Assembly: GCA_000934665.2 (NCBI GenBank)
Contig: KZ538458.1
Coordinates: 1-64,000, forward strand
Reading direction: 5' to 3'
DNA from: Catajapyx aquilonaris
Lineage: Eukaryota
Length of the DNA: 64,000 bases
In this document: one piece after another, positions 1 through 21,502 of the stretch
Layout: each line of letters starts with the position of its first letter
How positions within the stretch are numbered: position 1 is the stretch's first letter
Position numbers and translations under genes: made by a program
Notes under the pieces: generated by a model
Databases searched by the model: none
The model's input: the letters and a program-made list of their open reading frames with translations, nothing else
Told to the model about the DNA's origin: nothing

Positions 1-68
1 GGCCTCCGTACGGATTTGCATAGCGAATAACAGGAGAGACAGACATACGTCTAGAAATATGTATTAGA
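1..68 (-). mobile_element. Possible 5' terminus of a non-autonomous Helitron-like element (runs off the window)
   Basis: Minus strand reads A|TCTAATACATATTTCTAGACGTATGTCTGTCTC. A TC start after A followed by a GTCT-type tract resembles arthropod Helitron-derived repeats. Only one end is visible. Confidence 0.3.
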
Positions 69-545
69 TTATTATTATTATTATTATTATTATTATTGTT
101 ATTGTTATTGTTATTGTTATTGTTATTATTGTTATTATTGTTATTATTATTGTTATTATTATTATTGTTATTGTTATTATTGTTATTGTTATTATTGTTA
201 TTGTTATTATTATTATTATTTTTATTATTATTATTTTTATTATTTTTATTATTATTATTTTTATTATTTTTATTATTTTTATTATTTTTATTATTTTTAT
301 TATTTTTATTATTATTATTATTATTATTTTTATTATTTTTATTTTTATTATTTTTATTTTTATTATTTTTATTTTTATTATTATTATTTTTATTATTTTT
401 ATTTTTATTATTATTATTTTTATTATTATTATTTTTATTATTTTTATTTTTATTATTATTATTTTTATTTTTATTATTTTTATTTTTATTATTTTTATAT
501 TTATTATTTTTATTTTTATATTTATTTTTATTATTTTTATATTTA

Positions 546-587
<42 letters not shown>

Positions 588-920
588 TTTTTATTATTAT
601 TATTATTATTTTTATATTTATTTTTTATATTTTCATATTTTTTATATTTTCATATTTTTTATATTTTCATATTTTTTATATTTTTATATTTTTTATATTT
701 TTATATTTTTTAATTTTTTAATTTTTTATTTTTTATTTATTTTTATTATTTATTATTTATTTATTATCTATTTTTATTTTTATCTTTATTTTATCTTTAT
801 TTTATCTTTATTTTTTATTATTTTTTATCTTAATTATTTTTTATCTTAATTATTTTTTATCTTTATTATTATTATTATTTATTTATTATTATTGATGATG
901 ATGATGAAGATGATGATGAT
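68..920. repeat. Degenerate (TTA/TTG/TTT)n microsatellite grading into (GAT)n
   Basis: Directly visible; explains the spurious poly-Leu/Phe ORF 96-713. Confidence 0.97.
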
Positions 921-939
921 TATGCTATTGCATTGCATT

Positions 940-1195
940 GGAGGGAAAAATCGATTCGATGATTTGGTTTTGTTGGCGATATTGCTTATCGATATGAGCC
1001 ACCGCCGATTTTATGGATTCGAAATTTTCTAATAGCGGCTACGTTATTATAGGCCCAGTGGGAACAAGTGGTGCCATCTGGAAAGGCTCGAAGAGGGCGC
1101 CATTGCTCGAGAAGGCAGAACATCATCGCCGTTTTTCCTTTGTCTCCAAACCTCCTTCGGGAACAACAAGACGGGTCCAGCGGTGGTGCTTCGGG
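940..1195 (+). promoter_or_regulatory. Candidate CpG-rich promoter A of DDX19 with DRE-like TATCGATA (987-994) and ATCGATTCGAT (950-960)
   Basis: Local CpG enrichment about 200 bp upstream of ATG 1196. TATCGATA is the DRE/DREF core motif of insect housekeeping promoters. Confidence 0.45.
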
Positions 1196-1246
1196 ATGGC
1201 TGAACTCCCGAAGATGCTGCCCTCACGTAGGTGGGGCTCGCTGGAG
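1196..1246 (+). CDS. DDX19: DDX19 candidate first coding exon 1a (MAELPKMLPSRRWGSLE)
   Basis: ATG in GGGATGG context, 17 codons, donor GAG|GTAAGG, phase 0 matching the exon at 15579. Confidence 0.6.
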
Positions 1247-2824
1247 GTAAGGCAGTAAAAGCATGCAGCTGGCAGAGCTATAGGATCGGGCATGCTACAA
1301 CAAGTGGATGTTATCATTATTACAGGGTGACCAAAAAAAAAGCGACGGAATTTTATCAGCAACCTGTTTTTTTGACAAAGTTATTAAGGTTTTATCATGG
1401 CGGATTTTTGAGCTGTGGGTAGTCTGGCCATGTCATGTGCATGCCAGGATTTGTCCAGTGCCAGGTAGCAGAGTGCAGTAACACCATATTGTGCTCGCTG
1501 GTTTAAACTCACCAACAGAGTAATGGGCACCAGTTTCTCGAACTACAGTACCTTGGTGTGTGGTTTTATATTTCACATACACTGAGGTATGTAAATGTCA
1601 AATGTAGGGAATGATAGCTGCAGTGTTGGGATATCGCCTACGTTATGTGTTGCACAGGCCTAGGTGTTTGGTGCTACCATAGCCGCTAGGGGTTGCACAA
1701 ATCTGCTGGTGCCAGTTATGTAGGGAAGATTGTGTGCCAATGTGTGCAAATAAGTTGGAACAACCAGCTAATTGTTCTATAGGCTGATAAAAATTTGCAG
1801 GCAGTCAGCTAGGCCAGTACTGGGGCTTAACTGCTTATTACTAAAGCACAAGTGTTTTGGGTGTAACTCATTAATGGATGTCAAAATGAAGAGGCTGCAA
1901 TCAAAACGTGTTTAACAATTCCATTTGGGTGCACTTTTGACTCATCAAGAAAAATGTAGGGCTGAAATGCAAGGGAAAGGGGTCAGACATCCCATTGAAA
2001 ACATGCCAGATTTGCCTAATTGTCTGACCTGGTCTGACCTGGTCTGACCCTTAGCTAAGGCAGAGGGAATGATCATGCCCAAATAAATGATTAATTCTCC
2101 TGCATTGACTCTCATTGGAACTGTTTATATTGCAATGAAATGTTGAATGGGGTCATAAGGATACTATAATATGACTTGTACATGCTGATCACTTGTAAGT
2201 TGATCCAATCATGTGAGTTTATTATTCTCTGGGCTTTTTGTGGGCAAATTATTCATAATAAATTGCACTTGAGTAAAAGGGTGCAAGTAAAGCAATATAG
2301 AAATAGGAATCCAGTTACACCTTGTGTGTGGTACTCACCATTTCAAGCCAGATGATATGCAAGGTCAAAACATGTACTCTTAGCCTATGAGACACACATT
2401 CTTTTGTGAACAATGTAGGTGCTGATCCTTACATAACATTCCTTGGGCATTGCAAGTGAGACATGTCCTGCAGATAGTGGCACTCACAGAGTACTTCGAA
2501 GATTGAGCATCTACAACAATGTTGGCTGAAAGTACATATAGATTTTTCAATTTTCCCTGATATTAAATGAAGAGTGTTAGCTGTTTGAGCACATATTTAT
2601 TAATTACTGATGATGGTAAAGATTTCTATTAACATGTACTTTAATTTTGGAGGGAGATATTGAATTAACTGAAAATGTCAGGTTTCACATTCAGGAGACA
2701 ATACATGCTCCAAACATCAGACACTACAAGATATTTTGCTTCTGCATTTTTGCACCACATGAAATGGTTGCAAATGTACTTGCCTAAAGACTTTAGTTCT
2801 GTAGATCTGCAAAGCATAATAATA

Positions 2825-3660
2825 CGAGGCGCGTCCAGAAAGTAAGTTCCGTTTTTTTTATGAGAAAACCCACAATGGACCCCCAGAATTTTTATTTACA
2901 CGTCTGAAATTGACAACTGTCTACATTTTTTCTAAATTTTTACCTAATCGAGGAACTTTTTCATTGAGTTACACACGATTTTGTATGCTTATGTCTCTGC
3001 TGTCAGCCATTTCCGCGATCCCTGAACGCTGGATTGCAAATCCTCGTCATCATCAACCTTCTGCTTTGCAAGCCATTTCTCCCTGTCCATGGACAGGTGG
3101 TAATCACTAGGCTCTAAATCCCATGTGACAAAAAATTCTCACGTGAATTGTTGTGGCTGAGTTCCAGTAAGCAAGGCAGTGTGCAGGGGGGCATTGTCGC
3201 ACAAGAAAACACCCTGAAACCCAAAGCCAAAGCAAATGCATCTGTATATTGAGTTGCGGTGTGTTTTCTTGCGTGACAATGCCCCCTTACGTACTGCCTT
3301 GCTTATTGGAACCCTGCTGCAATCATTCAAGTGAGAATTTTTTGATCACCTGGGATTTAGAGCCTATAGCGATTTCCACCTGTTCATGGACATGAAGAAA
3401 TGGCTTGCAAAGCAGAAGGTTGACGATGAAGAAGAATTAAAATCCAGCGTTCAGGGGTCACAGAAATAGCTGGGGGCAGGTTTCTATGGCATAGGCATAT
3501 AAAATCATTTGTAACTCATGAAAAATGCCTCAATTTGGCTGGAAACTATTTTGAAAAAAAAGTCGACAGTTGTCGATTTCAGATGTGTAAATAAAAATTC
3601 TGGGGGTGCATAGCGGTTTTTCTAATAAAAAAACGGAACTTACTTTCTGGACGCTCCTCG
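2825..3660. mobile_element. Mariner-derived fold-back element built from two transposase 3' ends
   Basis: TA|CGAGGCGCGTCCAGAAAGTAAGTTCCG...CGGAACTTACTTTCTGGACGCTCCTCG|TA with about 400-bp arms. Right arm translates to decayed FLRDNAPLRTA...FDH...SDFHLF...HEKCLNLAGNYFEK. Confidence 0.9.
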
Positions 3661-3807
3661 TAATTTGGTTTCTCTGCTATCTTTTTTAAAATTTTGAATG
3701 TTGGTAAATGTGTGTGTAGGAGTTGACATGTGGCACATGAGCAGTATAATGTGTTCCTGGGAACCATCACATGAGGTAGATTGTATAGTAATTTATAGTT
3801 GGATGAA

Positions 3808-3933
3808 TCATCTCCTGCGGAGTTCGGGGTCATCTCCGGCTTCGTCTAGGGTGGGATTTCCGCTAGACGAACCACCTGGGGGAGCTCACAAAATGACCAT
3901 ATTGCCGACATTGCACTGCACATTGCACATCCT
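3808..3933 (+). mobile_element. SINE family A internal fragment
   Basis: Matches the core of 4474-4820 (CCACCYGGGGGAGYTCACAAAATGAC...CATTGCAC). Confidence 0.75.
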
Positions 3934-4473
3934 TGTCGAAACATGACAAACTGTACTACTTTGTGACAAAGGTCTGTGCAAAACCTCATATGAGGTACGC
4001 ACTATTCCCAATTATTATTATTAATTATTATAGTGGGATGAATGAACAATAGTCAACATCAGGCCAAGTAAAGTTGTAGCCTGCGCACCATAACTATTGT
4101 CTGCTGCAGGGAAGGTTGGTCCACATCAATAATCAAAGTAAATGGGTGAGGAAATTAAGTGCAATGTAATCCTGACTTAAGAAATGATAGGACTAGTTCC
4201 AAGTATAGTAATATTTTTTAACAGATCCAGAAAGTTTGGAATAATCCTGCTGGATGGTGTTATCTATAAATGTTTGAATCAATATGGACAGTGGGGGTAG
4301 TCACTCAATAATAATAATCCCAAGAATTTTTCATTATGTTAAACAATTATTATCTTTGGACTTGACCTAGAGCTCACACACGTACTGAACCATAGGATGC
4401 CACATTGGCTTCAGATTACTTAATGGAAGTTTTGAAATTGCGAGCTTTCAATTTTAATAATATCCGTATGATG

Positions 4474-4820
4474 TCGGGGAGACGGAGTGGCGCCGCGGTA
4501 ACGCGTGCGCTCACGGAAGTTAAGGTCCCGGGTTCAATCCCCACCCGGGGTTCCCACCTTCTTTCGTGCAGAGTTGGGCCATCTCTGGCTTCGTTTCGGG
4601 TGGCAATTTCCGGCAGACTAAGCCACCCGGGGGAGTTCACAAAATGACGATTTGAGACATTGCACTTGCACTTTGCACATCCCCTCCTACCCACCCTTGG
4701 AGCATACTAATTAAGATTCTTCTTAAACTCGCTCCAAAAACAATTCCAAAGGTGGCAACCCACCCCCCCTAAGGAGTAGTATAACTCCCCCCGTGGGGTA
4801 ATGAGAAAAAAAAAAAAAAA
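4474..4820 (+). mobile_element. tRNA-derived SINE family A, copy 1
   Basis: A-box-like TGGCGCCGCGG, B-box GGTTCAATCCC, poly-A tail, 12-bp TSD ATCCGTATGATG (4462-4473 / 4821-4832). Five related copies in the window. Confidence 0.92.
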
Positions 4821-5252
4821 ATCCGTATGATGAAGCTGGAAGTAGCCTTAGATTTTGTTAGGGTTAGTGCTGCTGCTTTCCAAAATTTGGAAGAAATGAC
4901 ATCCGAATTTAAATACCCGAGGGTTATCCTCGAGTATTTAAATTCGGATGTCATTTTCACTTGACGTATTCCTGACTATCCTGAGTAGGCCTACTATTTA
5001 TTGCAATATGACATGGTGCCACCTTTCCTAAAAACCATTAGCTTACATTTATCAGGATTACTTTTTAATGATTTGTTCATGAGCAAATTGGTTATGAGGG
5101 TTTCCTGCTTTGTGCAAATAGGTAATGCAATGTAGGGTGCTTATACGAATGCAGTGATTATGTTCAAAAATCAAGAGCAGATTACTAGTTGCCATGTCAT
5201 TTGTCTCCCTCAGTTGCAAACTCCCATATTGTGGATTCCAACACAGGAAATG

Positions 5253-5368
5253 TAGCTATCAAGGGGTAAATCACTCATGAAGTCTGTTGTATGGTATAAG
5301 GCGCCAAGTCGGACAGGTCCGGCTTTTTACAACGCTCAACTGCCGAGTGATTTACCCCTTGGTAGCTA
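5253..5368. mobile_element. Small MITE-like inverted repeat
   Basis: TAGCTATCAAGGGGTAAATCACTC ... GAGTGATTTACCCCTTGGTAGCTA (24 bp, 1 mismatch). Confidence 0.7.
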
Positions 5369-5688
5369 TGGTATTTACCTGTCAGATACAATTCTATGAT
5401 TTATGTGCTTTATATGATGCTGGTGTAGGCTGAGCGAATGTGTTTCATTCTCTACTGTAATGGTATATTTGCCTGCTGTACACCATTTCACACTGTGTTC
5501 AGGAGTTGTACTGCCCATGTGCATGAAACTTATTTTGTGGCTAACAGCATGAAATCTGGAAGGAGTGTGTAAACTGTTACATGAATTGCCCTTTGGTGAT
5601 CTTGCTATCTTCAACTAATCTAAGATGGCAGGGACAAGTTCCATGTGGAGTTTTCTAGCTCCTATATTTTCCCAAGGTCCCATCACCC

Positions 5689-6150
5689 TGTAACGGTACA
5701 TACGTTACCCCAATTGCTCTCCCTTCTTACAATGCATCCCTGCCATTACCACCCTGCCATATCCATCCTATCCCCTATATATTGCCCTCCACCTTTCAGT
5801 CCCATTCCTGCCCCTACCTCCCATAAAACCCTCCCTCTGTGAATGACACCCTGTTTGCCCAACTACCCAACGGTACGATCCTCTCTTGACCTCGCCACCC
5901 CCCTCCTTCTTGGGCACCCTCCTGCTTTCCCCTGCCTTTTTGGAGTTAGTCTGGATTGCAACCTCCTCCAGATGACACCCATATTCCTCCTCCTGCACCT
6001 ACAACATCCCCCGTACATCCTCCCTCGATCTACATTGTAATTGTTTATCTTGCCTCAATACATCAGTTATTCCACTACTATTGACTCCCCATATTCATTC
6101 CTCACACCCCCGTGACACTTCCCTCCTGACTTGACGTAATAAGTGTTACA
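5689..6150. mobile_element. Probable solo LTR (Ty3/gypsy-like)
   Basis: TGTAAC...GTTACA termini, 4-bp direct repeat ACCC on both sides, 462 bp of compositionally distinct C-rich sequence. Confidence 0.55.
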
Positions 6151-6433
6151 ACCCCCACTCAATCTCTTCCACTTCTACTTCTTACAGTAATATGGGAGCT
6201 TGGACATTGAATGCATGGTTTAGAATGGCTCTAATTTTGTGCTTCCAATGCATGTCATTGTCTCCTTAAGGGCCTAAATGGCAGGGGGCATGTAAGCTGT
6301 GAGTCTTTAGGATGCACCATGAAAGAAGCATACTAGATCAGTTGTGCTCATGATTTGTGAGACACTTTTCCATCATCACAGTAAATGTTATATTCCGGTC
6401 ACGAATGAGTGTTTGCTTCTATGTAATGTTATT

Positions 6434-7313
6434 GGGCAATTCCACGCGTTACGTACAGACAATCGGAAGCTGTATTGAGGTGTTTAGGAGTCCACCGTGG
6501 CTAGGTACTTGCCGTAATAGATTAAATTTTATGAAAATCAGATGCAGCGCAGAAATGTGAAGGTGAGGGACATCATGGAAATTTCATTCGATGGCCATCC
6601 ACGCATGTGCGATTGTCTGAAATCTCGTTACGTACAATCCGTCATTGGACACCAGTTTCTGGGGTATATGCAACTAGGGGGAAACTCTGCGAAATTTGAC
6701 AGCACAGGTTTCGAAGCTCAAGTGCATGTGGGGCGTGCGAGGAACCTCATCATGCCATATTAGATTGGGAGAATTCTCATTTTGAATGTGAAAACATTTG
6801 AGATATCCACCCGTTACGTACCACCCGGCATCGTTACATACAACCTGCAGCGATTTACTGGGAGTAGCATAAATTTTTGGAGATTGGAATGTCTGTGAAT
6901 TCATAATCTTATAATGGCTCCACTGCACTGAAATAGGAACTAGGTCAGTTTTTGCCCTTTGGATACCTTTTGGTGTGGCTGTGGAAGGTCACACATTCAT
7001 GAATACAGCAAAGTGATTGCACAGACCAATGTTGCATTTTGTGCCCTTGAATTATATGAAGACGTCTGTCTCTCTTCCTTTCACATATCGGTACAGCGAA
7101 TAACCAGCTGGCAATGCGCATTAGTCGAACGGATATAGAGCGCACGCTTAGATACTCTGGGAATAATACTGTGTTGTTGGGAATGATACTGTCACAAACT
7201 AACAATGGCTAAGGAAACCATGGTCCACATGCTATCGGTTTTAGTCACTCAGATTCCAACTGCGTCAAGATGTAAGAACCGCACCCCATGTCCGCTCTTT
7301 CGTGGAATTGCCC
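6434..7313. mobile_element. Non-autonomous TIR element, superfamily unassigned
   Basis: 13-bp perfect TIR GGGCAATTCCACG / CGTGGAATTGCCC; interior is CpG-richer than the flanks; TSD ambiguous. Confidence 0.65.
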
Positions 7314-8047
7314 TATGTATAGTGATCCCATGACTTTTGGCACTTCAATTCAGTGTATATTTGAATTATAACTTATTTGCATAATCTAGAATCTAGATAT
7401 TCACATAACATATTGGGATTAACTCTCCTTAAATGCTGACTACCCTCTGCTACCCTGAGAGGAAAATGTACTGTTTTGTGTATTCACGGCATACTGCGTT
7501 ACTGCCTAATCCCAAAAGTGCACCGCTCATAGGACTTCTCCACCTAATAAAATCAACCAGATAACCTTAAGCATTTTACTAGCAAAGAAGCGATAAAATT
7601 AAGCATACTTTACTTCATTTAAAGGGCATCATGGATGATGATCATCTCCATAACATTCATTTGCGTTTTTTTGTTCCAAGTGCCAGGAGATGAGTATGCA
7701 CCATTGTTTCACAAAGTAGCTCACATTTATGCAGCTGAAGTGTGCCCACCCACATGCCCTATAAGCAATCTGAAGGGGAAGGACAGGAAAAAGGAAAAAG
7801 ATAAGAGGTTGTGCTGTGCAGCATTTGGTTCTTCTGACCAACTAAAATTTGACCGGTTCCAATTTGATGCTGGCCAGTCTGCAACATTTAAGCCAGTATC
7901 AGTATGTACCCCAGTATCGGGGCTTCATGAACTTTACAATTCAAACAATCAACTGCCCATTGTGCATCATCTGGCGTCCCAAGGTAAAACACCCTAACTG
8001 CAAAACTAGTAAAGGTGAATAAAGACATAAAGTGATAATGTGATAAA

Positions 8048-8256
8048 GACATGAAACCAAAATCAGCATCTGGCAACCTCCTTGCTCTATATGGCAACCT
8101 CCTTGCTCTATATGGCAACCTCCTTGCTCTATATGGCAACCTCCTTGCTCTATATGGCAACCTCCTTGCTCTATATGGCAACCTCCTTGCTCTATATGGC
8201 AACCTCCTTGCTCTATATGGAAACCTCCTTGCTCTTACTGATTTTGGTTTCATGTC
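8048..8256. repeat. 21-bp tandem array (TGGCAACCTCCTTGCTCTATA x about 7.8, 8071-8235) bracketed by a 19-bp inverted repeat
   Basis: Units are directly visible; flanks are GACATGAAACCAAAATCAG and CTGATTTTGGTTTCATGTC. Confidence 0.93.
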
Positions 8257-8599
8257 ACTTGCCTTGTCATAATTTATCTCCATTCTGCACATACTGGATT
8301 ATTCCCTAACTAGACCCCGTCAATTAAATATAGTTATTGTTGTAATACAGAGCTACAACAGTGATCAGTATTAATATTGGCATGCGCTCTCGACGCCATT
8401 ATTATTTTTTCCAGCGGGAAATAGCCATTCATTAATAGCGGTTATCGCGATAACCGTTATCAATTAATCCGGCCACGTGGCCTTGACATATTATAGCTGC
8501 AGCTGAAATGGGCACGAATTCATCTCGTGTTGTAATAATTAGGACGTGATGAGCACTTTGCTTAATTCTAAAGATGTTGAGAACTACTTGTAGTGTACT

Positions 8600-8830
8600 G
8601 CACATCACATGGAAAACGACACCTGAAATTCGAAAATATCGATATACACACCGACGCGTATCGATTCGATACTGTTAAAAGTAGCTGCTACAATCGGCCT
8701 TCCTTCCTGTGATCCTGTGATTGCTTCCGTTTCCTTCTTTTGCCAATTGGGCTGTTTGATCCGGAGTTCTCTGGGACCCAGAATCTGTTGTGATCCTGGA
8801 GTAATCCCCAGCATTTTCGGCAGTATTTCG
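8600..8830 (+). promoter_or_regulatory. Candidate CpG-rich promoter B of DDX19 with TATCGATA (8637-8644) and ATCGATTCGAT (8660-8670)
   Basis: CpG-rich patch inside a CpG-poor intron; the same two motifs as promoter A, about 160-195 bp before ATG 8831. Confidence 0.45.
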
Positions 8831-8881
8831 ATGCAGAGTCCCGCCCCACATCTACCGTCCCGTCGGTGGGAACTTTTGCAG
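8831..8881 (+). CDS. DDX19: DDX19 candidate alternative first coding exon 1b (MQSPAPHLPSRRWELLQ)
   Basis: 17 codons, donor CAG|GTAATG, phase 0; shares LPSRRW and Leu16 at identical positions with exon 1a. Confidence 0.6.
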
Positions 8882-9193
8882 GTAATGGCTTCTGGGTGGG
8901 CAGATGGAGACTGGTTGACTCAATTTTGTTCTTTTGTGCCCTGTCCATGGATGGTTCTTATGGTCTTTTTGTGTTTAGGGAACTAATATGAATTAATAGA
9001 AACAAAAAAAAGTTCACAAATTCAACAAAAACTTTACCCAGCATAACTGGGTTAATGATAGGGCACTTCATAGAGAACAAGTGCAATGCTGTGTGGGAGC
9101 TTCTTCTGTTACTGTGAAAAATTGTTGAGTATGCTTGCTGCCCACTTGTTAATGTCCATGAGGCTATCTTTTAATTATTAGTACTTATTAGTA

Positions 9194-9823
9194 CCGTATT
9201 GCCTCACTTAAAGCGACATGCCGGCGTAGTCCAGGTCAACCAGTTTTCAGAAATGCATGATCTGGTGGCTATACCGGCAGGCCGCTCTAAGCGCGGTATG
9301 CCAGTATAAGGCGAGGTTTCCTTACAATCTCTATGAAAATTTTTATTACTCAAAGGAATGCATTACACCATGTTCTACTGTACGGATACAGCCCAGGACA
9401 CTTCTATCACCTGACACATCCCATAAGATCGTTCGTTAAGTTCAAATACGGCAACATTTTCAATTAAAAGTGCAAGGCTGCTAGAAGGGAAGAAGGAAAT
9501 TGATAACCACTATGCAAAGTGATCATCTCATTGCCAACGAGATCTGCGACCAGCTAACTATTGATAGCAAAACGAAGGACTGAAGGAATTTGCCTAGATC
9601 CTTTGTAATGTTTAGGGGGTGTTCCCCTCTCAGAGCAGGCTGACAGTCGGATTGGTCACACACTATGCCCTGTGCAACAGATGAACTTGCACATTATCAC
9701 AGCCCTGTACTCGCACATTTTTCATCGTAGCATGATTTTAGTACTGTATCAGATGCATTCAAAAAAAATTGACAAGGATCAAAAAGACAGAAATCTACCT
9801 CGGGTATTGCGGCATACGAATGC
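9194..9823 (+). mobile_element. TA-flanked CCGTATT-type DNA transposon relic (Tc1/mariner superfamily, pogo-like)
   Basis: Starts TA|CCGTATTGCCTCACTTAAAGCGACATGC; 9498-9823 is the reverse complement of 33599-33920; right terminus missing. Confidence 0.65.
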
Positions 9824-10330
9824 AGTCCAATCATTCCTACCTCAAGTCCACTGCTAGAGCGGGTGGCAATTATACCAACATAGTAAAAACTTGCTCACTA
9901 AAACACCAACAGTGGCAGGCATGCATGAGTGAGTCACGGAAAATGCAGCCACCTGTAGTAATCAGGTCTGATTTGGAGGGAAATGTGATCCTACTGTCTG
10001 CAGAATTACAAGAAGCAGTGAAGTCAGCCTGTGTGAACTTGTAAGGGTCAGTGACATGCAGCCAACTTAGATATACAGTCACATTATACAAGGTTGGCCA
10101 ATATTTTGCCATGAAGGGAGGGAGGGGAGAGAAATAATATTTGCCAAGCTGGACCAGATGTTTGTCACGAGACAATTATTCAATTCTGAAATTACGGATT
10201 TGGGAGTGTACCGACTCTCAGAGACATTGGCATGGAATCAATACAAATGTGTGCAGCTATCTGATATAATGGACTTCCATTCATTATAATTATGCTTACA
10301 ATAGCAGTGGAGCTGTTCTTCGCATGGCCT
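9822..10330 (+). pseudogene. Decayed transposase fragment, resembling the animal CMC/EnSpm-type C-terminal region
   Basis: Translates to QSNHSYLKSTARAGGNYTNIVKTCSLKHQQWQA, then TLYKVG and DIMDFHSL, recalling the RFEAKH-xxK...NFxNIxKTLAxRHQ pattern. Recognised from memory only. Confidence 0.4.
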
Positions 10331-10945
10331 ATTTGCTTGTTAAAGGAAGTCAGAATTGCTGCAGACCGGAAAAATTCTAAATTTCAGTCATATATAGACT
10401 CAAGAAAGTGCAGTTTTCTGACTTTTCCCTGAATCAGCAGTGCGTAATTACCTCCTCTGAGGAGGACAATCATGCCTTGTATAGCGGAATCGACGCCCAT
10501 ACAGTGAAACCTGTACATTGCAGAATCACACGGGGCCCTAAGTTTTTCCTTAATGAATAGGTTTCCACTATATTCAGATCAAGCACGTTACTGGTATTTT
10601 TCGCCGGTGAGAAAGAGAGGAAAATGGGGAGATCAAAAATAAGCAAAATCAGTCCAACACAAAAGCATTTTTGTGAAATAGTATGTTTTACCCAGTTTTA
10701 CCGTGTGGTTTTACCTGGCGTACAGCACATCTTAAAAACAAGAAAGGCAGTTTCATTTGCGGTTGAAAATGTACTCTTGGAATACCCCGAACAAACGCCT
10801 CCTTCAAATATTCTACTTCGATATTCACGACACTTGCATCACCACACTAGCTGTTTTCCATGAAATTATGTGCCTGTTGCAGAAACTTTCCAGCCACCCA
10901 CTTCAAGCACTAAACTTTGCCGCAACAGTTTTGGACTATTAATTT

Positions 10946-11288
10946 GTTATAATTTTTAAATATTATTTTACCCCATTGAGAGATCATCGCTCTATTAGGG
11001 GAGTGGAACACCACCATATTTTCCATTTTCTTAATTTTCTTCAGCTCCGTGCGAAGATGACATGACATGGGGAATGGATGGGGATTTTTGGTGAGGAGAC
11101 AAGGGTGCAGTGCAATGACATAAACTGGGTCATGTGCAGTCTCCTGGAGGTTAGGTTGCCAGACACCTTCACAGCGCAGGTCAGAGACCCTCCTGATGCA
11201 GGTGAAAGGGAGCGCCCGGACAGGGATGAACCTGGGACCTTTCACTCAGCAAGCCGAGGAGTTACCATCTCGGCCACCACCCCTCCCC
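10946..11288 (-). mobile_element. tRNA-derived SINE family B, copy 1
   Basis: Minus-strand A-box TGGCCGAGATGG and B-box-like GGTTCATCCC; tail ...CAATGGGGTAAAATA; TSD TTTGG(A/G)CTATTAATTT (10930-10945 / 11289-11304); similar to 20657-20982. Confidence 0.85.
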
Positions 11289-12585
11289 TTTGGGCTATTA
11301 ATTTTGCCTGCTTTATTGGACCATCGGCTGTGACATGGGCAATACTTTGAGCCTGGGTCAACCCCTTCCTCTTTCCCAACATTTTAAAACTGGACTGAAC
11401 AGTGAACTAAACTTGAAGGCAGAGCACCTATAGGAATCATGAGTCACAATCTTTCCCCCAAAGGTACTAAGGAAAGACAAAGATTGGAAACAAAGATATA
11501 ATTGGTTGCAGGGATATATTTTTTCAGGGGGGGGGGGGGGGAGANGGGGGAGACGTTTTCCGCCCACCTATGCAGTAGGCCTACTCCATGGATATTCTTT
11601 TTCGCCCATCACTTTGGTCTTGCAACTCCAGATTCAAATTAGTTCAAAATGTTTGATTTGTTTCACACTTTTTGCGCTATAGTTTGAGGGAAAATGAATT
11701 ATTCTATGAGCCACTTCTGAAAATGATGACATAATTTAGTACTAGATTGCAATGCAAACTTTCATATCCATAAGCACCAGTGAAAGAATACTGATGATAA
11801 TATTACTAAACATACACCCCCACTCCTTAAGTATGCATTTATTATTTTAACAGGTTTCAATACAGTACATCTCAGAAATAATTGTACTAGCTGTAACCCG
11901 AAATGTGGTTGCATTCTGGAATTAACCATATAGCCCCAATTTACATTTATATAGCATCAAGTTAGGTAGCATGTTCAGTGTGCCATCCATTTTTCTGTTT
12001 TCTAACGTTATGGAAAACTCCGCATTATTACGTTACATAATCCGTAGTTGTTCAGTGTAATTTTCCTGTAACTATATGGCACACTTTCCGTAAGCTTTAT
12101 CGTGCCGTTTGGATGTGGTCCGGTCATGCCCCACTTTCCGAACTGTCTGCCCATGTAGAAGTTGCCAAAGGGCCTTTTCCGATTTTGTGACTCCGAATGT
12201 GGAAGCATGACCAACAAAACAGCCAGGATCACTCATACTCTTCATGAAGAGGTACGTACAATGGGGAGCACATGAAACGTACCTTTGCCAGCAGCAATGA
12301 ACAAGTCAGAATGTGCTTATGGCCTATCTGATTTTTATAGATAATGTGTTTGTCATAAGTTGTTTCTCTGAGGGTCATTGACTGATAAAAGCACATTTAG
12401 AACAGGTTTGCATTGAATGTTCAATGACTTAACTGGCAAACATCATATTGAAATGCATCTGAAAATATGATACACTTTGGTTGTTTTTTTGAACCTGAAA
12501 TTGTTCATTGCGCAAATCCGTGCATATGCTGAGATAATGTGCATTGCAAAGATTGAACAAATATAGTTGAGTTACTTGAGTACTG

Positions 12586-12887
12586 GAACCGAAGCAGTGG
12601 TAGCGGAGGGCATATGGTATCCGACTGCTAATCGGGAGGTCCTGGGTTCGAATCCCGGTGGCGGCCGACCCTCGTGGTTTTCTGTGGTTTCCCATGGTCT
12701 CACCAGGAAAATTCTGGGGTCGTGTCCGTAATTGTAGGCCACAGCTGCTTCCTTCAGTCCCTATCCCATCCCCATATAAGAGAAGTAAAAAATTAAAAAT
12801 GAAAGCAAGAGTTCTAGATAAAATATAAAAAAATATGGTGGTGTCTCAACCCCCGAAGAGGGCCCATGTCTCTAGCAAGGTGTACAA

Positions 12888-12943
<56 letters not shown>

Positions 12944-13098
12944 TATTATTATTATTATTATTATTTATTTGTTATTTATTATTTATTTATTATTTATTAT
13001 TATTTATTATTTATTATTATTATTATTATTTATTATTATTAATTATTATTATTTATTATTATTTATTTATATTTATTTTTATTTTTATTTATTATTAG
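12586..13098 (+). mobile_element. tRNA-derived SINE family C, copy 1, with expanded (TTA)n tail
   Basis: B-box GGTTCGAATCCC; core GTGGTTTTCTGTGGTTTCCC...GGCCACAGCTGCTTCCTT; TSD TTGAGTACTG (12576-12585 / 13099-13108). Confidence 0.88.
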
Positions 13099-13199
13099 TT
13101 GAGTACTGAAAGTAGAAAAATTATTTGTCCACTTGGGTTTGATCTGACTTTTTCAATTGTTGGTTCACGTCGAAATTGACACATTCACATAATTAATAT

Positions 13200-15300: not shown

Positions 15301-15578
15301 ACTCATGAGAAAATTAGGCAGAAGGGCTTACAATAAACTGTTTAAAAGCTATGCATAAGTGATGCCCTGAGATGTTATAATGTACTGTTGCATACATTGA
15401 GCCTATCACCCACATATTATAGTCGGACAGTCACATAGCCTTAGTTTGTTGCTTGGGCTTCTTCCAGCTCAATCATGCAGTAAATGAAAAAAAAAAAAAA
15501 AAATGCAGGACATGACAGAAGAAATTTGTATCAGAGTTAAGCAGTTATTATGCTAATGAAATTGTTCTACCCTTGTAG

Positions 15579-15778
15579 GGTCTGAATATTACCCAAGATG
15601 GTGCTGCTAATGCCAGTCCAAACAACGAGCAGGATCCCAAAGGGGACCAGGAAACGCAATATCTCCTGAGAAAGATCATCAGGAAGGGGTTGATTGAGAA
15701 CAAGAATGACGTGGAGATTCAGAGACGAAATCCCAATTCACCTCTCTACTCCATAAAGACATTTGAGGCGCTGAATCT
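15579..15778 (+). CDS. DDX19: DDX19/DBP5 DEAD-box helicase, exon 2
   Basis: TAG|GGT CTG...; encodes LLRKIIRKGLIENKNDVEIQRRNPNSPLYSIKTFEALN, the DDX19-specific N-terminal segment; donor CT|GTAAGT. Confidence 0.93.
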
Positions 15779-15867: not shown

Positions 15868-15960
15868 GCCTGCAAACCTGCTGAAGGGTCTGTATGATAT
15901 GGGATATGATTCACCATCCAAGATTCAAGAAGCTGCCCTTCCTACCTTGATGGCTGATCC
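15868..15960 (+). CDS. DDX19: DDX19 exon 3 (Q motif)
   Basis: LLKGLYDMGYDSPSKIQEAALPTLMAD; AG/GT borders, phases 2/2 consistent. Confidence 0.95.
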
Positions 15961-16423
15961 GTAAGTCAACACGTGCTTTACCAATGTTAACTTTTCTCAA
16001 GGCTTGAATTTGATTAGGTAGTAAAATGATTGGGCGTTAATTTGTAGATCATCTGGAGTGTGTTAATTGCTGGATGATGATGGTGAATTTGACAAGTAGT
16101 GGAGCTAAAAATCCCAGTAAATCCTAGTAGATAGTGAAAGAGAAAAAACTTCACCTGCATTTTAGTTTACTTTTGACAACTTTTTGCAGCCTACTAACAG
16201 GGGGTCATTACTGGATTAGTCCAGCAGAAAACTAAAATCTATGTGGACCTTGTAAACCCAACTCATCTTGGATTAACCTCAGACTAGCTTTGTTGTGTGT
16301 CTTGAGCCCATGCCAATGCTATTGCAACCAATGTCAGGCCTTGTCAGTGTTTTTGAACATAAATTAGTGTTTTTGTGGTGTACAGTTTGGTACAATATTC
16401 CATAATGGTTTGTGCTGCTTCAG

Positions 16424-16526
16424 GCCCCAAAACATGATTGCCCAGTCTCAGTCTGGCACAGGGAAGACTGCTGCTTTCGTTCTGGCAATGCTGAGTCGAG
16501 TAGATCCTGACAAGAAGTACCCGCAG
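16424..16526 (+). CDS. DDX19: DDX19 exon 4 (motif I)
   Basis: PQNMIAQSQSGTGKTAAFVLAMLSRVD; CAG| acceptor, CAG|GTAAG donor. Confidence 0.97.
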
Positions 16527-16604
16527 GTAAGGAATGATTGGGAAAGACATGGCATATTGCGCTACCTCCCTGGTATGAAATATTTTATGTTCCTTAACTT
16601 TCAG

Positions 16605-16719
16605 TCCCTTTGCTTGTCCCCAACCTATGAACTTGCACTCCAAACAGCAACTGTCACCAAGAAAATGGCCAAGTATTGCCGAGACTTACAGATTAAGTTG
16701 GCTGTTCGAGGGGAGAACA
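16605..16719 (+). CDS. DDX19: DDX19 exon 5 (motif Ia)
   Basis: SLCLSPTYELALQT...AVRGEN; PTYELA is typical of DDX19; phase-1 donor A|GTACGT. Confidence 0.95.
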
Positions 16720-17091
16720 GTACGTTGTTTCTAATTTCTTAGAGGTCATCATCAGTACATACATTATTAGACCCTCTGCCTGCGCAGTAATTTCAAAAAC
16801 CGTAAGAGCCAGTTGGCCTTTTTTTGTCTTGACTTCTTCCCAATCAACTAACCAAACAAACAAAAAGGCCATCTACTTGATTGGTTGAGACATATTTTCC
16901 AGATGATGTGACAGTTATTTGCTATGCTAGCACAGACAACAATTCGGTGACAAATCTTTACCCAAATTGCCAGCAACAAATACATACATGGTGTTCCAAG
17001 TATATTGGTACTTTTAGTTAGAGGAAATTTTGCTCGAAACTAATTTTTTTTTTTGAAGCTCATTGGGCCCTGATCCAGGTCTCCTATTCTA

Positions 17092-17462
17092 CAGGGTAGT
17101 CACGAATTCGCCTGCCAAAATGGTATGGGGGTGCGTATGATAAACACATGGCATGGGCCTGAAAGGCCGTTGATGCTATGTTTAGCAGGAGATGTCGACC
17201 TTTGACATCTACGATGTCCATCCTGACAAGTATGGAAACCCCTGGCCATGCCTGCGTTACTGATTGCCTGTTCCAGGCGCTTGCACTCCTACACCATTGC
17301 CTGACCCTGGCAACCAGCGATGCAGGGATCAATGCACGGGGTATCCATACTCTTGTCAGGATGGACAGCTTTGACGGCCTTTCGAGCCCATGCCATGCTT
17401 CTTCCATGCTCACCTCCTACCACCCATATCATTTTGGTAGGTATGAATTTGTGACCACCCTG
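17092..17462. mobile_element. Tc1/mariner-type MITE
   Basis: TA|CAGGGTAGTCACGAATTC...GAATTTGTGACCACCCTG|TA with long degenerate arms. Confidence 0.8.
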
Positions 17463-17837
17463 TACAACAAGGCAGTGCTACATTCGACCACCTGATACAG
17501 TAAAGAGATCTCTGGATCGGGGCATAACAAGCTACACAAAAATAACTACTTTGGATGATATTAGTGATAACTAATAACAACCCACAAACTTGCAACACCA
17601 CATATAAGAATATTCTGTATGCCTTCGGACCAATGCACCTATGACAAATGTGCCTGCAATGTGATGAACTTTTGTATGGTTAGCTGCATTGGCACCAGCT
17701 CAGGTTGAGTCAAAATGGCAGCATCTGGAAAGCAACTGCGACAATAAATGTAGCTAGGGTAATATGTGCTGCTGATGACCATGATGATATCTATTCAGTT
17801 TCAAAATCCTTTCGAATGATTTATTTCTCTGATAAAG

Positions 17838-18015
17838 TGGCTGCAGGGGAAAATATTGAAGAGCAGGTTATTATTGGCACCCCTGGAAAAGTTCTGGATT
17901 GGTGTCTGAAGTACGGAGTCCTTGACTTGAAACAGCTAAAAGTATTTGTTTTGGATGAAGCTGACATCATGATCAGTCAGCAGGGGCACCAGGACCAGAG
18001 CATACGCATCCACAA
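17838..18015 (+). CDS. DDX19: DDX19 exon 6 (motifs Ic and II DEAD)
   Basis: VIIGTPGKVLDW...VFVLDEADIMISQQGHQDQSIRIH. An in-frame alternative acceptor lies 9 nt downstream (exon start 17847). Confidence 0.95.
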
Positions 18016-18721
18016 GTAAGTTTACACAGCAGTATTATTTGCTCCAGTTTTGTCCTAACTTACTGTTAGTTAAGTCACCAATTTCTGCATATACGAGTAC
18101 ATCATAGAAAAAATTAACATTTCTCTCAAAGTGAGGAAAGCCTTGTTAGTGATGTCAAAGGTGGAAAGATGTTAATTTTTCCATGATGTGTAAAGAACAG
18201 ATTTTTAGGTTCCAAAAACCCATCAAAAAGGTAGGGATACAGTTCCTGAAAACATTAAACTGGGCTATTAAATAGGCAGTAAAAATGAATCAGCTTCTAA
18301 CTTTTTTTCATTCTGATACAGTATTGCAGCCTACTCTTGGCAGCACAATAACACACTAGCAGTTGCTGGTTCCATTGGCGGTTAGTTGGTGATGCCTGTC
18401 TGACAACACATCATTAGGCCTATACTCGTATGATGCAGAAAATTACATTTCGACGTCACACGAAGTATAACTGGATTATGCGTGAAAAGTGATGAAAAGT
18501 TAATCTGGCATACCTACAACTTCTTTGCCCATCACAGGTTGAAGTGGAAGGAAAGCATTGAACGGAAAACCCACAGAACTCTCGCAAATCTTACAGAACG
18601 GTGTCAAAAAGGTGGAGATATGCGCTAATAAGCCACTTAGGTTCCAATGCCCTGAATATGCAATTTTAGGTTCTACTATATTAAAACTTATGACTTTTGA
18701 GGTCCTTGTGTTATAAAAGAA

Positions 18722-19434
18722 CGATGGCTAGTCGGAAAATAAGTTTCGCGATGCTACAGTTTCGACGCCATGCGATGGACAGAGTAAAAACGAGCATAAG
18801 CAGATACATTGATCCTTCCTCTACTTTACAGGACAGGTAGGCGCCTTCTTGCAGCTTATGTGCAGGCGCGGCAGCTGTTGGAGGAGGCCAAGTGGCGAGC
18901 CGAGCGTGTCCACCCATATGCCTCCAGGAAAAGTCATGCCAGACTGCCAGTGTCGGTCACATGGACTAAGACAGAAGATGCTCGCTACCAGTGGTCGACA
19001 ATTGACATACGATATTCATCACTGGCTAGTGGAGTGTATGATCCGGAGATGTCGTGTCTGAGCACATGGTTCGGCGATATGGTGCCAGCAATTTTAGAAT
19101 AAGCTCGCAAGTGTAAAGAACAACCAGAGACACGAACTACCAGCCACAGCAATGACCAACAGTGTATGCAAGTGTCCTCACTTGTGCCTTAGTCCATGTG
19201 ACCAACACTCTGCCTGGCATGACATTTCCTGGAGGAATGTGGGCTGGCATGCTCTGCTGGCCACTGGGTCTTGTCCAACGGCTGCCGTCCCGGCGCATAA
19301 GTTGCAAGAAGGCGCCTACCCAGCCTATAAAGTAGAAGAAGGATCAACGTACCTGCCTGTGCTCCTCTCTACCCTGTCCATTGCATGGCGTCAAAACTGG
19401 AGCATCGCGAAACTTCTTTTCCAACTAGCCCTCG
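18722..19434. mobile_element. Mariner-derived fold-back element built from two 5' ends
   Basis: About 255-bp inverted arms ending ...CTAGCCCTCG|TA. Spacer encodes a decayed HTH region: DIHHWLVE...VSEHMVRR-WCQQF*NKLASVKNNQRHELPATA. Confidence 0.85.
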
Positions 19435-19602
19435 TATATTATTTATTCCGGTTCCTGTCTTCTGCCTATACAGAATAAAGAGTAGGCAAAAACGTAAAAA
19501 TCCGTTCTTTACTTATTGCATGGTGCATGATATCAGCTCCTTGAAATGCTTGATCACGTTACCTAATGTGTCACTTACGAGTTCCTTACCACCTTTCTGC
19601 AG

Positions 19603-20006
19603 GACCCTGCCTGACATTTGCCAAAGGATGCTATTTTCAGCTACGTATGATGATGAAGTGTTGGAGTTTGCTGACGCCATCATTCCCAACACCCCCTTGA
19701 TCCTCCGCCTGAAGCGAGAGGAGGAATGCTTGACCAATGTCAAGCAGTTATATGTGACCTGCCCTACGCAGGATGAGAAATACCGTGCTATAGCCAACAT
19801 TTATGGGGTGGTAACTATTGGTCAGGCTCTGATCTTCTGCCGCACACGTAGAACAGCCACGTGGTTGGCAGACAAAATGGGTACTGACGGCCATGCTGTG
19901 GCGCTGCTGACCGGAGAGCTTACCACTGAGCAGAGGGCAGCTGTGATAGAACGCTTTAGGGAAGGGTTGGTTAAAGTTATCATCACCACCAATCTTCTGT
20001 CTAGAG
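19603..20006 (+). CDS. DDX19: DDX19 exon 7 (motifs III SAT, IV, IVa, V)
   Basis: MLFSATYD...IGQALIFCRTRRTA...QRAAVIERFREG..VIITTNLLSRG. Confidence 0.97.
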
Positions 20007-20451
20007 GTGTGTGTATTTTTGAGTTCTTCCTGGTTGGAAAGTGGGTAGCAATAATGAGTTTAACATTTGTTTGTGACACAGTACAAACTTCAATAATTGA
20101 TTAATTAATTAATAATTTTAATGCCTTTCTTATTTTTAATAGTGCATATTGAGTGTGGTGCATTTGTGTCACATTAACCTAGACTCCTAGAGGTTTAATG
20201 TCATTTCAAAAATAAATAACTATAGTTATTTATTTTTGAAATGAAATGAAACCTTACTTTTAAATTTGTGGTATTATAGTATTTGTCATATGGTTTTAAT
20301 TGACCAGTGGTAATCATTTGAAATGTAATTTTTTGAGAAAACCTTACTTCTTCATATCTTAAGTGTACAAAGAGTTGTTTTTTTTTGTTTTGTTTTTTTT
20401 TTGTATTTTTTTTCCATTACTGCATGGTGATATTGATTTTTATTTGCACAG

Positions 20452-20643
20452 GAATTGACGTTGAGCAGACCACCTTGGTGGTGAACTACGATCTGCCCAT
20501 TGATCAAATAGGAAGAGCCAGCTGTGAGACCTACTTACATCGCATAGGTCGCACCGGAAGGTTCGGAAAGGCGGGACTTGCCATCAACCTGGTGGAGGAT
20601 GACCATTCCCTAAATGTGCTCAAGCAGATCGAGAATCACTTTG
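20452..20643 (+). CDS. DDX19: DDX19 exon 8 (motifs Va, VI)
   Basis: [15 protein letters not shown]...[23 protein letters not shown]. Confidence 0.97.
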
Positions 20644-20656
20644 GTTAGTTATAACT

Positions 20657-20982
20657 GATTTGTTCAAATGTGTTAAAATTTATTTTACCCCATGATAGAG
20701 AACAATGCTCATATGGGGGGGGGGNGGGCACACCACCATCAGTTTTCTGCGTTCAATTTGATCTTCAGTCTCTGGTGCAAGGAATCAAGGACCTAGGGTA
20801 GGGAGGGCCAAGGGTGCAAGTGCAATGTCGGTACACTGGTCATGTGCAGTCCCCCAGGAGGTTATGTTGCCTGACACCTCCAAGCCGCGGGTCAGGCCCT
20901 TCTGATGCAGGCGAAAGGGAAATACCAGGCAGGGATCGAACCTAGGACCTCAGTAAGCCGAGCCGGTCACCATGCCTACCCG
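20657..20982 (-). mobile_element. tRNA-derived SINE family B, copy 2
   Basis: Similar to 10946-11288; TSD TAGTTATAACT (20646-20656 / 20983-20993); tail ...CATGGGGTAAAATA on the minus strand. Confidence 0.8.
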
Positions 20983-21434
20983 TAGTTATAACTTATTATT
21001 ACAGGTTAAAAAAGTGCAGTCAAGTTTATGTAAAAATTTGTGGAGTCTGGAGCAGTGGTTTTCCAAGTGGGCCATTGCAAAGACCCTCTAGGTCTAGTGG
21101 GGCTGTGAACGTATCAAAATTTCAATTTTTTATTGGAGTTGATTAGCAAATGGCAGTATGCATATGGGATTAAGTGGGCCATGCCATGAATAACTTAGTA
21201 TGCTTCCACAGACATTCCATACACCTTAAGTGTTAAAGTCCTTTCCTATAGGACTTAGGGATGGGAGTGCACCTGTGCAATGACAAAAAAATCAGCTGGA
21301 CACTCTATTTCCTGATGCTACCCTCGTCCATGTTTTCTGCCAGGCACTTCCTGAACTGAAAGTCTGTAGTAACTAGCAGTGCGACGAAAATTCCACCCAT
21401 AGTATATTGCTACTGTTCTTCTTTCTCTTTGCAG

Positions 21435-21502
21435 GCCGGAAAATTGTCAAACTGGACAGTGACAATGTGGATGAACTGGAAAAGCTCTTCCAGGATTACT
21501 AA
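21435..21502 (+). CDS. DDX19: DDX19 terminal exon 9
   Basis: Polypyrimidine tract + CAG|GC CGG; RKIVKLDSDNVDELEKLFQDY*. Spliced total is 1404 nt (467 aa) with either first exon. Confidence 0.93.

What the first reader, a model, noticed from the sequence alone, without database searches (positions are those of the whole stretch)
940..8883. DDX19 appears to have a duplicated promoter + first-exon module, both copies encoding LPSRRW
Seen: two 51-nt ATG-to-donor segments 7.6 kb apart, 1196-1246 (MAELPKM-LPSRRW-GSLE) and 8831-8881 (MQSPAPH-LPSRRW-ELLQ). They have equal length, are both phase 0 (matching exon 15579), and place LPSRRW and Leu16 identically, mostly through synonymous codon changes (CTG/CTA, CCC/CCG, TCA/TCC, AGG/CGG, CTG/TTG). 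Each sits in its own CpG-rich patch with TATCGATA about 200 bp upstream and a shared ATCGATTCGAT. The two nearest upstream AGs of 1b are out of frame, arguing against a cassette exon. Known: the DDX19 N-terminal extension is regulatory, and TATCGATA is the DRE housekeeping motif. Inference: an old tandem duplication gave two N-terminal isoforms that keep a selected short motif I do not recognise from other DDX19 proteins.
Basis: partly seen in the sequence, partly recalled or inferred. Interest (0 to 1): 0.8.

Follow-up and report, generated by a model that had tools for sequence, protein, structure and literature searches.

The report
Twin promoter and first-exon modules, DDX19
An arthropod copy of the mRNA-export helicase DDX19/Dbp80 seems to have two old, duplicated start modules (promoter plus a tiny first coding exon) that both keep the same short peptide, a familiar kind of gene layout whose actual use could not be checked for lack of RNA data.

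Summary
Two 51-nt ATG-to-donor segments (1196-1246, 8831-8881) both encode 17 residues with LPSRRW at 8-13 and Leu16, in the phase that exon 2 (15579) needs. Either one gives an intact 467-aa DDX19/Dbp80 ORF.

Chance is very unlikely:
- TATCGATA and ATCGATTCGAT each occur only twice in the 64 kb, 194-209 nt upstream of the two ATGs.
- A 56-58 nt block starting at each TATCGATA aligns (0 of 500 shuffles reach its score).
- Both leaders lack any ATG for 183 and 222 nt.
- In LPSRRW synonymous sites are saturated (pS 0.75) and no residue has changed (pN 0); codons 2-7 are scrambled (pN 0.86).

This points to an old tandem duplication with selection on both copies.

The motif is only partly unfamiliar. 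34 of 40 full-length homologues have a Trp in their first 16 residues. Trp13 and Leu16, together with Leu and Ile at the start of exon 2, form an export-signal-like pattern, which 28 of 40 homologues also show near the N-terminus. Yeast Dbp5 has a proven Xpo1 export signal there. LPSRR itself was seen in no homologue.

No RNA run, own genome or close relative was available, so use of both exons is inferred. This is a new member of a known kind, of moderate interest.

The parts
950..960 (+). ATCGATTCGAT element of module 1a
   Evidence: One of only 2 exact sites in the window.
987..1044 (+). Promoter block of module 1a; it begins with the DRE-type TATCGATA (987-994)
   Evidence: One of 2 TATCGATA sites in 64 kb. 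It aligns to 8637-8692 with score 18, reached by 0 of 500 shuffles. The two blocks are each other's best non-self match in the whole window on both strands.
1016..1195 (+). ATG-free leader, candidate 5' UTR of exon 1a
   Evidence: The nearest upstream ATG is at 1013, 183 nt away. Only 2.9% of ATG-to-ATG gaps in the window are that long.
1196..1246 (+). Coding part of first exon 1a (17 codons, LPSRRW at 8-13), followed by the donor gag|GTAAGG
   Evidence: Joined to exons 2-9 it gives an open 467-aa frame.
8637..8692 (+). Promoter block of module 1b; it begins with TATCGATA (8637-8644) and holds ATCGATTCGAT (8660-8670)
8612..8830 (+). ATG-free leader, candidate 5' UTR of exon 1b
   Evidence: The nearest upstream ATG is at 8609, 222 nt away. 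Only 1.4% of gaps in the window are that long. 0 of 7 AGs here are in phase.
8831..8881 (+). Coding part of first exon 1b (17 codons, LPSRRW at 8-13), followed by the donor cag|GTAATG
   Evidence: Joined to exons 2-9 it gives an open 467-aa frame.
15579..15778 (+). Common exon 2. It begins GLNI and holds the DDX19 autoinhibitory-helix region
   Evidence: The acceptor ttgtag lies directly before it, with an in-frame stop just upstream and no Met inside. It aligns to insect Dbp80. Boundaries were fixed.
15868..21502 (+). Exons 3-9 of the DDX19/Dbp80 gene: 15868-15960, 16424-16526, 16605-16719, 17838-18015, 19603-20006, 20452-20643, 21435-21502 (stop at 21500-21502)
   Evidence: tblastn with a termite Dbp80, splice sites read, open frame. 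The ORF holding exon 6 hits human DDX19B structures at E about 1e-21.

Best explanation
The DDX19/Dbp80 gene of this arthropod has two alternative start modules that arose from an old tandem duplication. Each module consists of a DRE-type (TATCGATA) housekeeping-style promoter, an ATG-free leader of about 100-200 nt, and a 17-codon first exon with a consensus donor. Each first exon is spliced on its own to the common exon 2 at 15579. Exon 1b has no usable acceptor, so it cannot be an internal exon.

The two proteins would be 467 aa long and differ at 9 residues. Both keep Met1, LPSRRW (8-13) and Leu16.

The likely reason for that constraint is as follows. Trp13 is this lineage's version of the N-terminal Trp that most metazoan DDX19 proteins carry. 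Trp13 and Leu16 supply the first half of a hydrophobic, export-signal-like pattern. Leu and Ile at positions 2 and 4 of exon 2 complete it.

Shown here: the sequence anatomy and its non-random character. Inferred: that both promoters fire, that both junctions are made, and the role of the peptide.
For: Anatomy:
- Both first exons are 17 codons, phase 0, with strong donors like those of the gene's other introns.
- Exon 2 cannot start translation, because a stop lies directly upstream and it has no Met.
- Either first exon gives an open 467-aa frame.

Non-randomness:
- The only 2 TATCGATA sites and the only 2 exact ATCGATTCGAT sites in 64 kb lie just upstream of the two exons.
- The 56-58 nt promoter blocks align with score 18, reached by 0 of 500 shuffles, and are reciprocal best matches in the window.
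- A shared hexapeptide between candidate first exons appears in 10 of 300 shuffles.
- The ATG-free leaders of 183 and 222 nt fall in the top 2.9% and 1.4% of gaps.

Selection on both copies:
- LPSRRW has pS 0.75 with pN 0 (0 changes over 12.7 non-synonymous sites). Codons 2-7 have pN 0.86.
- The rest of the two modules, and the introns behind them, no longer align.
- Gene conversion is unlikely, because 4 of the 5 codons that have synonymous alternatives differ.

Comparative context:
- 34 of 40 full-length homologues have Trp within the first 16 residues.
- 28 of 40 have an export-signal-like pattern in the first 45 residues, against 4.7 of 40 after shuffling. Several of these homologues are near-duplicates.
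- Cephus cinctus isoforms X1 and X2 differ by a first exon joined at the same intron position.
- Yeast Dbp5 has an N-terminal Xpo1-dependent export signal with L12, L15 and I17 (PMC6711706, passages read).
Against: - There is no transcript evidence of any kind.
- No orthologue from a close relative was found, so conservation of LPSRRW across species is untested.
- The canonical stretch that follows the Trp in most homologues (acidic, EQE-like) is missing from both exons.
- At DNA level the coding blocks are no better matched than chance hits elsewhere in the window. The 5' UTR block between promoter and ATG does not align significantly (409 of 500 shuffles reach its score).
- Exon 1b has a poor start context (T at -3, C at +4).
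- An in-frame ATG at 1013 would lengthen form 1a if transcription began upstream of it.
- No Inr or TCT motif was found in either leader.
- The export-signal pattern is permissive. Given exon 2, I estimate that a random exon pair would show it in both roughly 1 time in 16; this is my own rough estimate, not a call.
- The window starts only about 1.2 kb upstream of 1a, so a further upstream first exon cannot be excluded.
Confidence: 0.6

Rival explanations
1. Only one module is in use today, more likely 1a. The other is a relic of the duplication that has not yet decayed.
For: Exon 1a has the better start context (G at -3, G at +4), begins with Met-Ala like most homologues, and has Trp-Gly as in several insects. 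Exon 1b has a weak start context. No RNA data show either junction (one search listed no run).
Against: Everything else in the modules has diverged to saturation: pS is 0.75 and the flanks are unalignable. Even so, the putative relic keeps its ATG, an open frame, 6 of 6 motif residues, Leu16, a consensus donor, an ATG-free leader and the DRE block. A dead copy of that age should have lost several of these.
Confidence: 0.2
2. The true DDX19 first exon lies elsewhere, upstream of the window or undetected. The two modules would then serve other transcripts.
For: Neither exon carries the canonical Trp-plus-acidic stretch of other DDX19 proteins. The window begins 1.2 kb before 1a. A canonical-looking start (MASGWA) sits at 8885 but has no usable donor.
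Against: A scan of 1-15578 found no exon with Trp followed by an EQE-like stretch. Among Met-to-donor candidates with an early Trp, only 1a and 1b combine a consensus donor with phase 0 and an ATG-free leader. 0 of 30 ORFs tested in the region have a Pfam match, so no other gene is evident. Both exons carry the Trp at a position typical of the family.
Confidence: 0.1
3. Both modules are copies of a dispersed repeat that happens to carry a promoter-like block and a short ORF.
For: The region holds repeats: tRNA-like elements, inverted-repeat elements and another shared hexapeptide, GCLPTR, in repeated DNA. The genome could not be searched.
Against: There are only two copies in 64 kb and no third match on either strand. 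Similarity is patchy, confined to the promoter block and the motif codons with unalignable DNA between, which is unlike copies of a mobile element. Look-ups of both modules in earlier notes found nothing related, though that index is small.
Confidence: 0.06
4. The resemblance is coincidence.
For: A shared hexapeptide alone turns up in 10 of 300 shuffles.
Against: The same offset, the same length, the only two TATCGATA and ATCGATTCGAT sites of the window at matching distances, and the aligned promoter block (0 of 500 shuffles) together make chance negligible.
Confidence: 0.02

Closest known systems
Alternative first exons of insect Dbp80/DDX19 genes, for example Cephus cinctus isoforms X1 and X2 as named by NCBI (P0005, P0004)
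   Same: The two annotated forms differ only in a short first coding exon. It is joined to the common second exon at the same place in the protein as here, just before the hydrophobic N-L-x-I stretch.
   Different: In Cephus the two first exons are unrelated in sequence, and one lacks the Trp. Here the two are paralogous, equal in length and keep the same hexapeptide. I saw only the protein sequences, not the Cephus gene.
Tandemly duplicated alternative exons, first or mutually exclusive (general class; recalled from the literature, no paper read here)
   Same: The two copies are homologous, of equal length and phase, lie in tandem, and each would be joined to the same downstream exon.
   Different: Each copy here brings its own promoter block, so the choice would be made at transcription start rather than by splicing. 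Use is not shown.
N-terminal Xpo1-dependent nuclear export signal of yeast Dbp5 (L12, L15, I17; PMC6711706, passages read)
   Same: A hydrophobic pattern lies within the first roughly 20 residues of the same helicase family. In this gene, Leu16 of either first exon with Leu and Ile of exon 2 have the same spacing.
   Different: The pattern was tested only by matching, not by function. Positional homology between yeast and arthropod N-termini was not established. Here it is split by an intron and preceded by Trp and a basic LPSRR stretch.
Flexible N-terminal extension and autoinhibitory helix of human DDX19 (PMC2667716 and PMC5998080, passages read)
   Same: The helix region is present in exon 2 and shared by both forms. 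The variable 17 residues belong to the part that is flexible in human DDX19, where removal of residues 1-53 raised basal ATPase about 2.5-fold.
   Different: The human N-terminus, as I recall it and not from any call, has the Trp followed by an acidic stretch that this gene lacks.
DRE/DREF housekeeping promoters of Drosophila (PMC12549938, passages read)
   Same: TATCGATA lies with further CGAT-type motifs nearby, there is no Inr, and the setting is CpG-rich.
   Different: The start sites are unknown here and factor binding is untested in this organism.

Membership tests
DDX19/Dbp5/Dbp80 DEAD-box helicase | DEAD-box helicase core with closest similarity to DDX19 | tested here: met
   The ORF holding exon 6 hits human DDX19B chains at E about 1e-21, and Dbp5 next. 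The best database hits are named Dbp80/DDX19 and carry PF00270 and PF00271. The full model is 61-68% identical to the 12 named insect and sponge proteins, except the sponge at 56%.
DDX19/Dbp5/Dbp80 DEAD-box helicase | N-terminal autoinhibitory helix region ahead of the core (metazoan DDX19) | tested here: met
   Exon 2 aligns over this region with insect Dbp80 at 79-85% identity for the 3 best hits. The helix itself was not modelled.
Alternative first exons with own promoters | Each exon has a start codon and a donor in the phase of the common exon | tested here: met
Alternative first exons with own promoters | The downstream first exon has no usable acceptor | tested here: met
   0 of 7 upstream AGs are in phase, and the pyrimidine content of the 20 nt before them is 0.45-0.65.
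Alternative first exons with own promoters | Separate transcription starts and both splice junctions seen in RNA | not testable with these tools
   No RNA run was listed and no genome is held.
Tandem exon duplication | Copies are homologous beyond chance, with the same length and phase | tested here: met
   Promoter block: 0 of 500 shuffles reach its score. Hexapeptide: 10 of 300 shuffles. Both copies are 17 codons. DNA similarity of the coding blocks alone is not outstanding.
Leucine-rich (exportin-1) nuclear export signal | Four spaced hydrophobic positions | tested here: met
   The pattern is found from residue 13 in both forms. It is permissive.
Leucine-rich (exportin-1) nuclear export signal | Export activity dependent on exportin-1 | not testable with these tools
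   This needs a cell assay.
DRE/DREF housekeeping promoter | TATCGATA close to the transcription start | tested here: inconclusive
   The motif is present 194 and 209 nt before the ATGs. The start sites are unknown.
Dispersed repeat family | Many copies across the genome with even similarity along the unit | tested here: inconclusive
   There are only 2 copies in the window, with patchy similarity. The rest of the genome is not available.

The most novel reading that the evidence does not exclude
The extreme N-terminus of DDX19 would be a two-part localisation signal split by the first intron: a Trp-centred motif, then a hydrophobic export-signal-like stretch. In this lineage the usual acidic linker has been lost and a basic LPSRR stretch gained. 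Both alternative first exons would then be held to the same eight residues because each must complete the signal encoded at the start of exon 2. The two promoters would let the cell change when and where the helicase is made without touching that signal.
Probability: 0.25. Interest if true: 0.5.

Novelty: new member of a known kind. Interest (0 to 1): 0.35.

Why it matters
Paralogous first exons act as a natural mutagenesis experiment. After divergence to saturation, what the two copies still share (Met1, LPSRRW, Leu16, the donor and the DRE block) marks what this gene cannot lose.

That draws attention to the very N-terminus of DDX19. Its Trp is widespread in animals (34 of 40 homologues here), yet none of the passages I read from five papers assigns it a role.

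If the export-signal reading is right, it would link the animal N-terminus to the tested yeast Dbp5 signal. For genome annotation, it gives two testable first exons for a gene whose exon 2 cannot start translation.

Tried and rejected
- RNA evidence: for 15579-21600, no RNA holder was listed.
- Own genome: none is held, so neither copy number of the modules nor a second DDX19 gene could be checked.
- Close relatives: three protein searches (exon 2 against longer proteins, exon 7 against longer proteins, exon 2 against proteins of similar length) gave 7, 48 and 3 hits. None was closer than 85% over part of exon 2 or 71% over exon 7, and none had LPSRR.
I did not resend it, because at the allowed limit only near-identical peptides could pass.
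- Earlier notes: nothing related by place or sequence. One unrelated phage hit was ignored.
- A third candidate first exon at 11067-11090 (MGNGWGFL, gtgagg donor) was rejected. It has an ATG 5 nt upstream, no DRE and no leader.
- Cassette-exon reading of 1b: rejected.
- A conserved pyrimidine block in the two leaders (1129-1142 against 8727-8742) is not significant; 409 of 500 shuffles reach its score.
- Inr and TCT motifs: none in either leader.
- Nested gene between the exons: 0 of 30 ORFs have a Pfam match. Rfam gave only two weak tRNA-like hits in the window.
- Literature: no passage that I read assigns a role to the N-terminal Trp of DDX19. This does not show that none is in print.


Full report
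**Observation.** 1196-1246 encodes MAELPKMLPSRRWGSLE and is followed by gag|GTAAGG. 8831-8881 encodes MQSPAPHLPSRRWELLQ and is followed by cag|GTAATG. Each is 17 codons, and 25 of 51 nt are identical.

**The gene.** The gene on the + strand is a DDX19/Dbp5/Dbp80 helicase. The ORF holding exon 6 matches human DDX19B structures at E about 1e-21. Database hits are insect proteins named Dbp80 that carry PF00270 and PF00271. tblastn with a termite protein and reading of the splice sites gave these exons:

- exon 2: 15579-15778
- exon 3: 15868-15960
- exon 4: 16424-16526
- exon 5: 16605-16719
- exon 6: 17838-18015
- exon 7: 19603-20006
- exon 8: 20452-20643
- exon 9: 21435-21502 (stop included)

Exon 2 is preceded directly by an in-frame TAG that also supplies the acceptor AG, and it contains no Met. 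A coding first exon that ends in phase 0 is therefore needed. With either 1a or 1b the frame is open for 467 residues. The two donors resemble those of the gene's other seven introns.

**Is it more than chance?**

- TATCGATA occurs at just 2 sites in the 64-kb window, 987 and 8637. These lie 209 and 194 nt before the two ATGs (shuffle mean 0.37).
- ATCGATTCGAT occurs exactly at just 2 sites, 950 and 8660.
- A local alignment of the promoter regions picks out 987-1044 against 8637-8692 with score 18. None of 500 dinucleotide shuffles reaches that score. Each block is the other's best non-self match in the whole window on both strands.
- Among all ATG-to-GT phase-0 candidate exons in 941-15578 (341 candidates), a shared non-trivial hexapeptide arises in 10 of 300 shuffles. 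That count ignores the identical offset and length.
- Neither ATG has another ATG for 183 and 222 nt upstream. Only 2.9% and 1.4% of ATG gaps in the window are that long.
- The CpG counts of the two 300-nt promoter windows are at the 99th and 96th percentile.

Some results are weaker. At DNA level the coding blocks (score 12; 2 of 500 shuffles in the pairwise test) are no better than chance matches when compared with the whole window. The leader region between promoter block and ATG does not align significantly (409 of 500 shuffles). No Inr or TCT motif is present.

**What the pattern of divergence says.** Across the 17 codons synonymous sites are saturated (pS 0.77). Within LPSRRW pS is 0.75 and pN is 0. 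In codons 2-7 pN is 0.86. Outside the promoter block and the motif the modules no longer align, and the introns behind them share no collinear similarity.

This is the signature of an old duplication in which both copies kept Met1, the motif, Leu16, the donor, an ATG-free leader and the DRE block under selection. Recent gene conversion is unlikely, because 4 of the 5 motif codons that can vary do vary. A mobile-element origin fits poorly with such patchy similarity. Copy number in the genome could not be checked.

**Not a cassette exon, no nested gene.** All 7 AGs in the open frame upstream of 1b are out of phase and lack pyrimidine tracts. None of 30 ORFs tested between 2.8 and 15.1 kb has a Pfam match. 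Rfam finds only a weak tRNA-like hit at 12594-12666 in this region.

**The motif in context.** Of 55 homologues fetched at that point, 40 are full-length by my filter (Met start, and the helix region found). I dropped 15 fragments.

- 34 of the 40 have a Trp in the first 16 residues. It is usually followed by Ala, Gly or Ser and then an acidic EQE-like stretch.
- 28 of the 40 have a spaced hydrophobic, export-signal-like pattern within the first 45 residues, against 4.7 of 40 after shuffling. Several of these proteins are near-duplicates, so the counts overstate independence.
- Cephus cinctus X1 and X2 differ by a first exon joined right before that hydrophobic stretch. This is the same intron position as here.

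In this gene the acidic stretch is missing. Trp13 and Leu16 of either first exon are followed, two residues into exon 2, by Leu and then Ile with the spacing of such a signal.

Yeast Dbp5 has a tested Xpo1-dependent signal at L12, L15 and I17 (PMC6711706, passages). In human DDX19 residues 1-53 are a flexible extension whose removal raises basal ATPase about 2.5-fold (PMC5998080, passages). The autoinhibitory helix lies behind that extension (PMC2667716, passages). Here the helix region sits in exon 2.

The Trp is therefore recognisable, and the invariance of Trp13 and Leu16 has a plausible reason. LPSRR was seen in none of the homologues. The pattern match is permissive and is a lead, not a test.

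**Mechanism proposed.** Two DRE-type promoters each start a transcript with its own leader and 17-codon exon. Each is spliced to exon 2. The DRE as a housekeeping promoter motif is taken from PMC12549938 (passages). The proteins would differ at 9 of 467 residues, so the likely point of the arrangement is separate transcriptional or translational control while the N-terminal signal is kept. Exon 1a looks like the stronger start: G at -3 and +4, and a Met-Ala beginning. Exon 1b has T at -3.

**What could not be done.** No RNA run was listed, so no junctions or start sites could be examined. No genome is held. Three protein searches found no close relative. The full protein is 61-68% identical to insect Dbp80 proteins, which are 69-81% identical to each other among those compared. 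This gene therefore comes from a lineage outside the sampled insects, from a fast-evolving one, or is a divergent paralogue. Notes on other windows of this genome call it an arthropod.

**Verdict.** The duplication-with-selection reading is well supported by sequence. Use of both exons and the role of the peptide remain inferred. This is a new member of a known kind, tandemly duplicated alternative first exons, with a modest added point about the DDX19 N-terminus.

Noticed in passing
window 8885-8986 (+): Four bases after the exon 1b donor, and in the same frame, an ORF begins MASGWA. This resembles the usual Met-Ala-Ser...Trp-Ala start of other DDX19 proteins. It is the only match to that pattern in 941-15578, and 15 of 400 shuffles have any match. 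It has no usable phase-0 donor. It may be a relic of an older first exon, or chance.
   Followed up: partly
window 8047-8256 (+): A 21-nt tandem repeat of about ten near-identical units lies 400-600 nt upstream of the 1b promoter block.
   Followed up: no
window 1-940 and about 12888-13100: Long ATT/ATTTT-type microsatellite tracts. The first ends about 50 nt before the 1a promoter block.
   Followed up: no
window 2823-3662: Nested inverted repeats (arms of 48-113 nt, 81-88% complementary) inside the intron after exon 1a, like a foldback or MITE-type element. ORFs there have no Pfam match.
   Followed up: partly
window 12594-12666 (+) and 52151-52223 (-): Two tRNA-like matches just above Rfam's threshold (32.4 and 29.8 bits against 29). 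They are probably tRNA-derived repeats. Similar tRNA-like translations appear near 4400-4700.
   Followed up: no
window 36732-37670 (-): A long open frame with repeats that look ankyrin-like by eye. It probably belongs to a neighbouring gene on the other strand. It was not tested against any library.
   Followed up: no
whole DDX19 model, 1196-21502 (+): The protein is about equally distant (61-68%) from all insect orders sampled, while those compared are 69-81% alike among themselves. Several otherwise conserved core residues differ. A divergent paralogue cannot be excluded.
   Followed up: partly
window 1013 (+): An ATG in frame with exon 1a and with no stop between lies inside the promoter block. 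It would add 61 residues if transcription began upstream of it.
   Followed up: no
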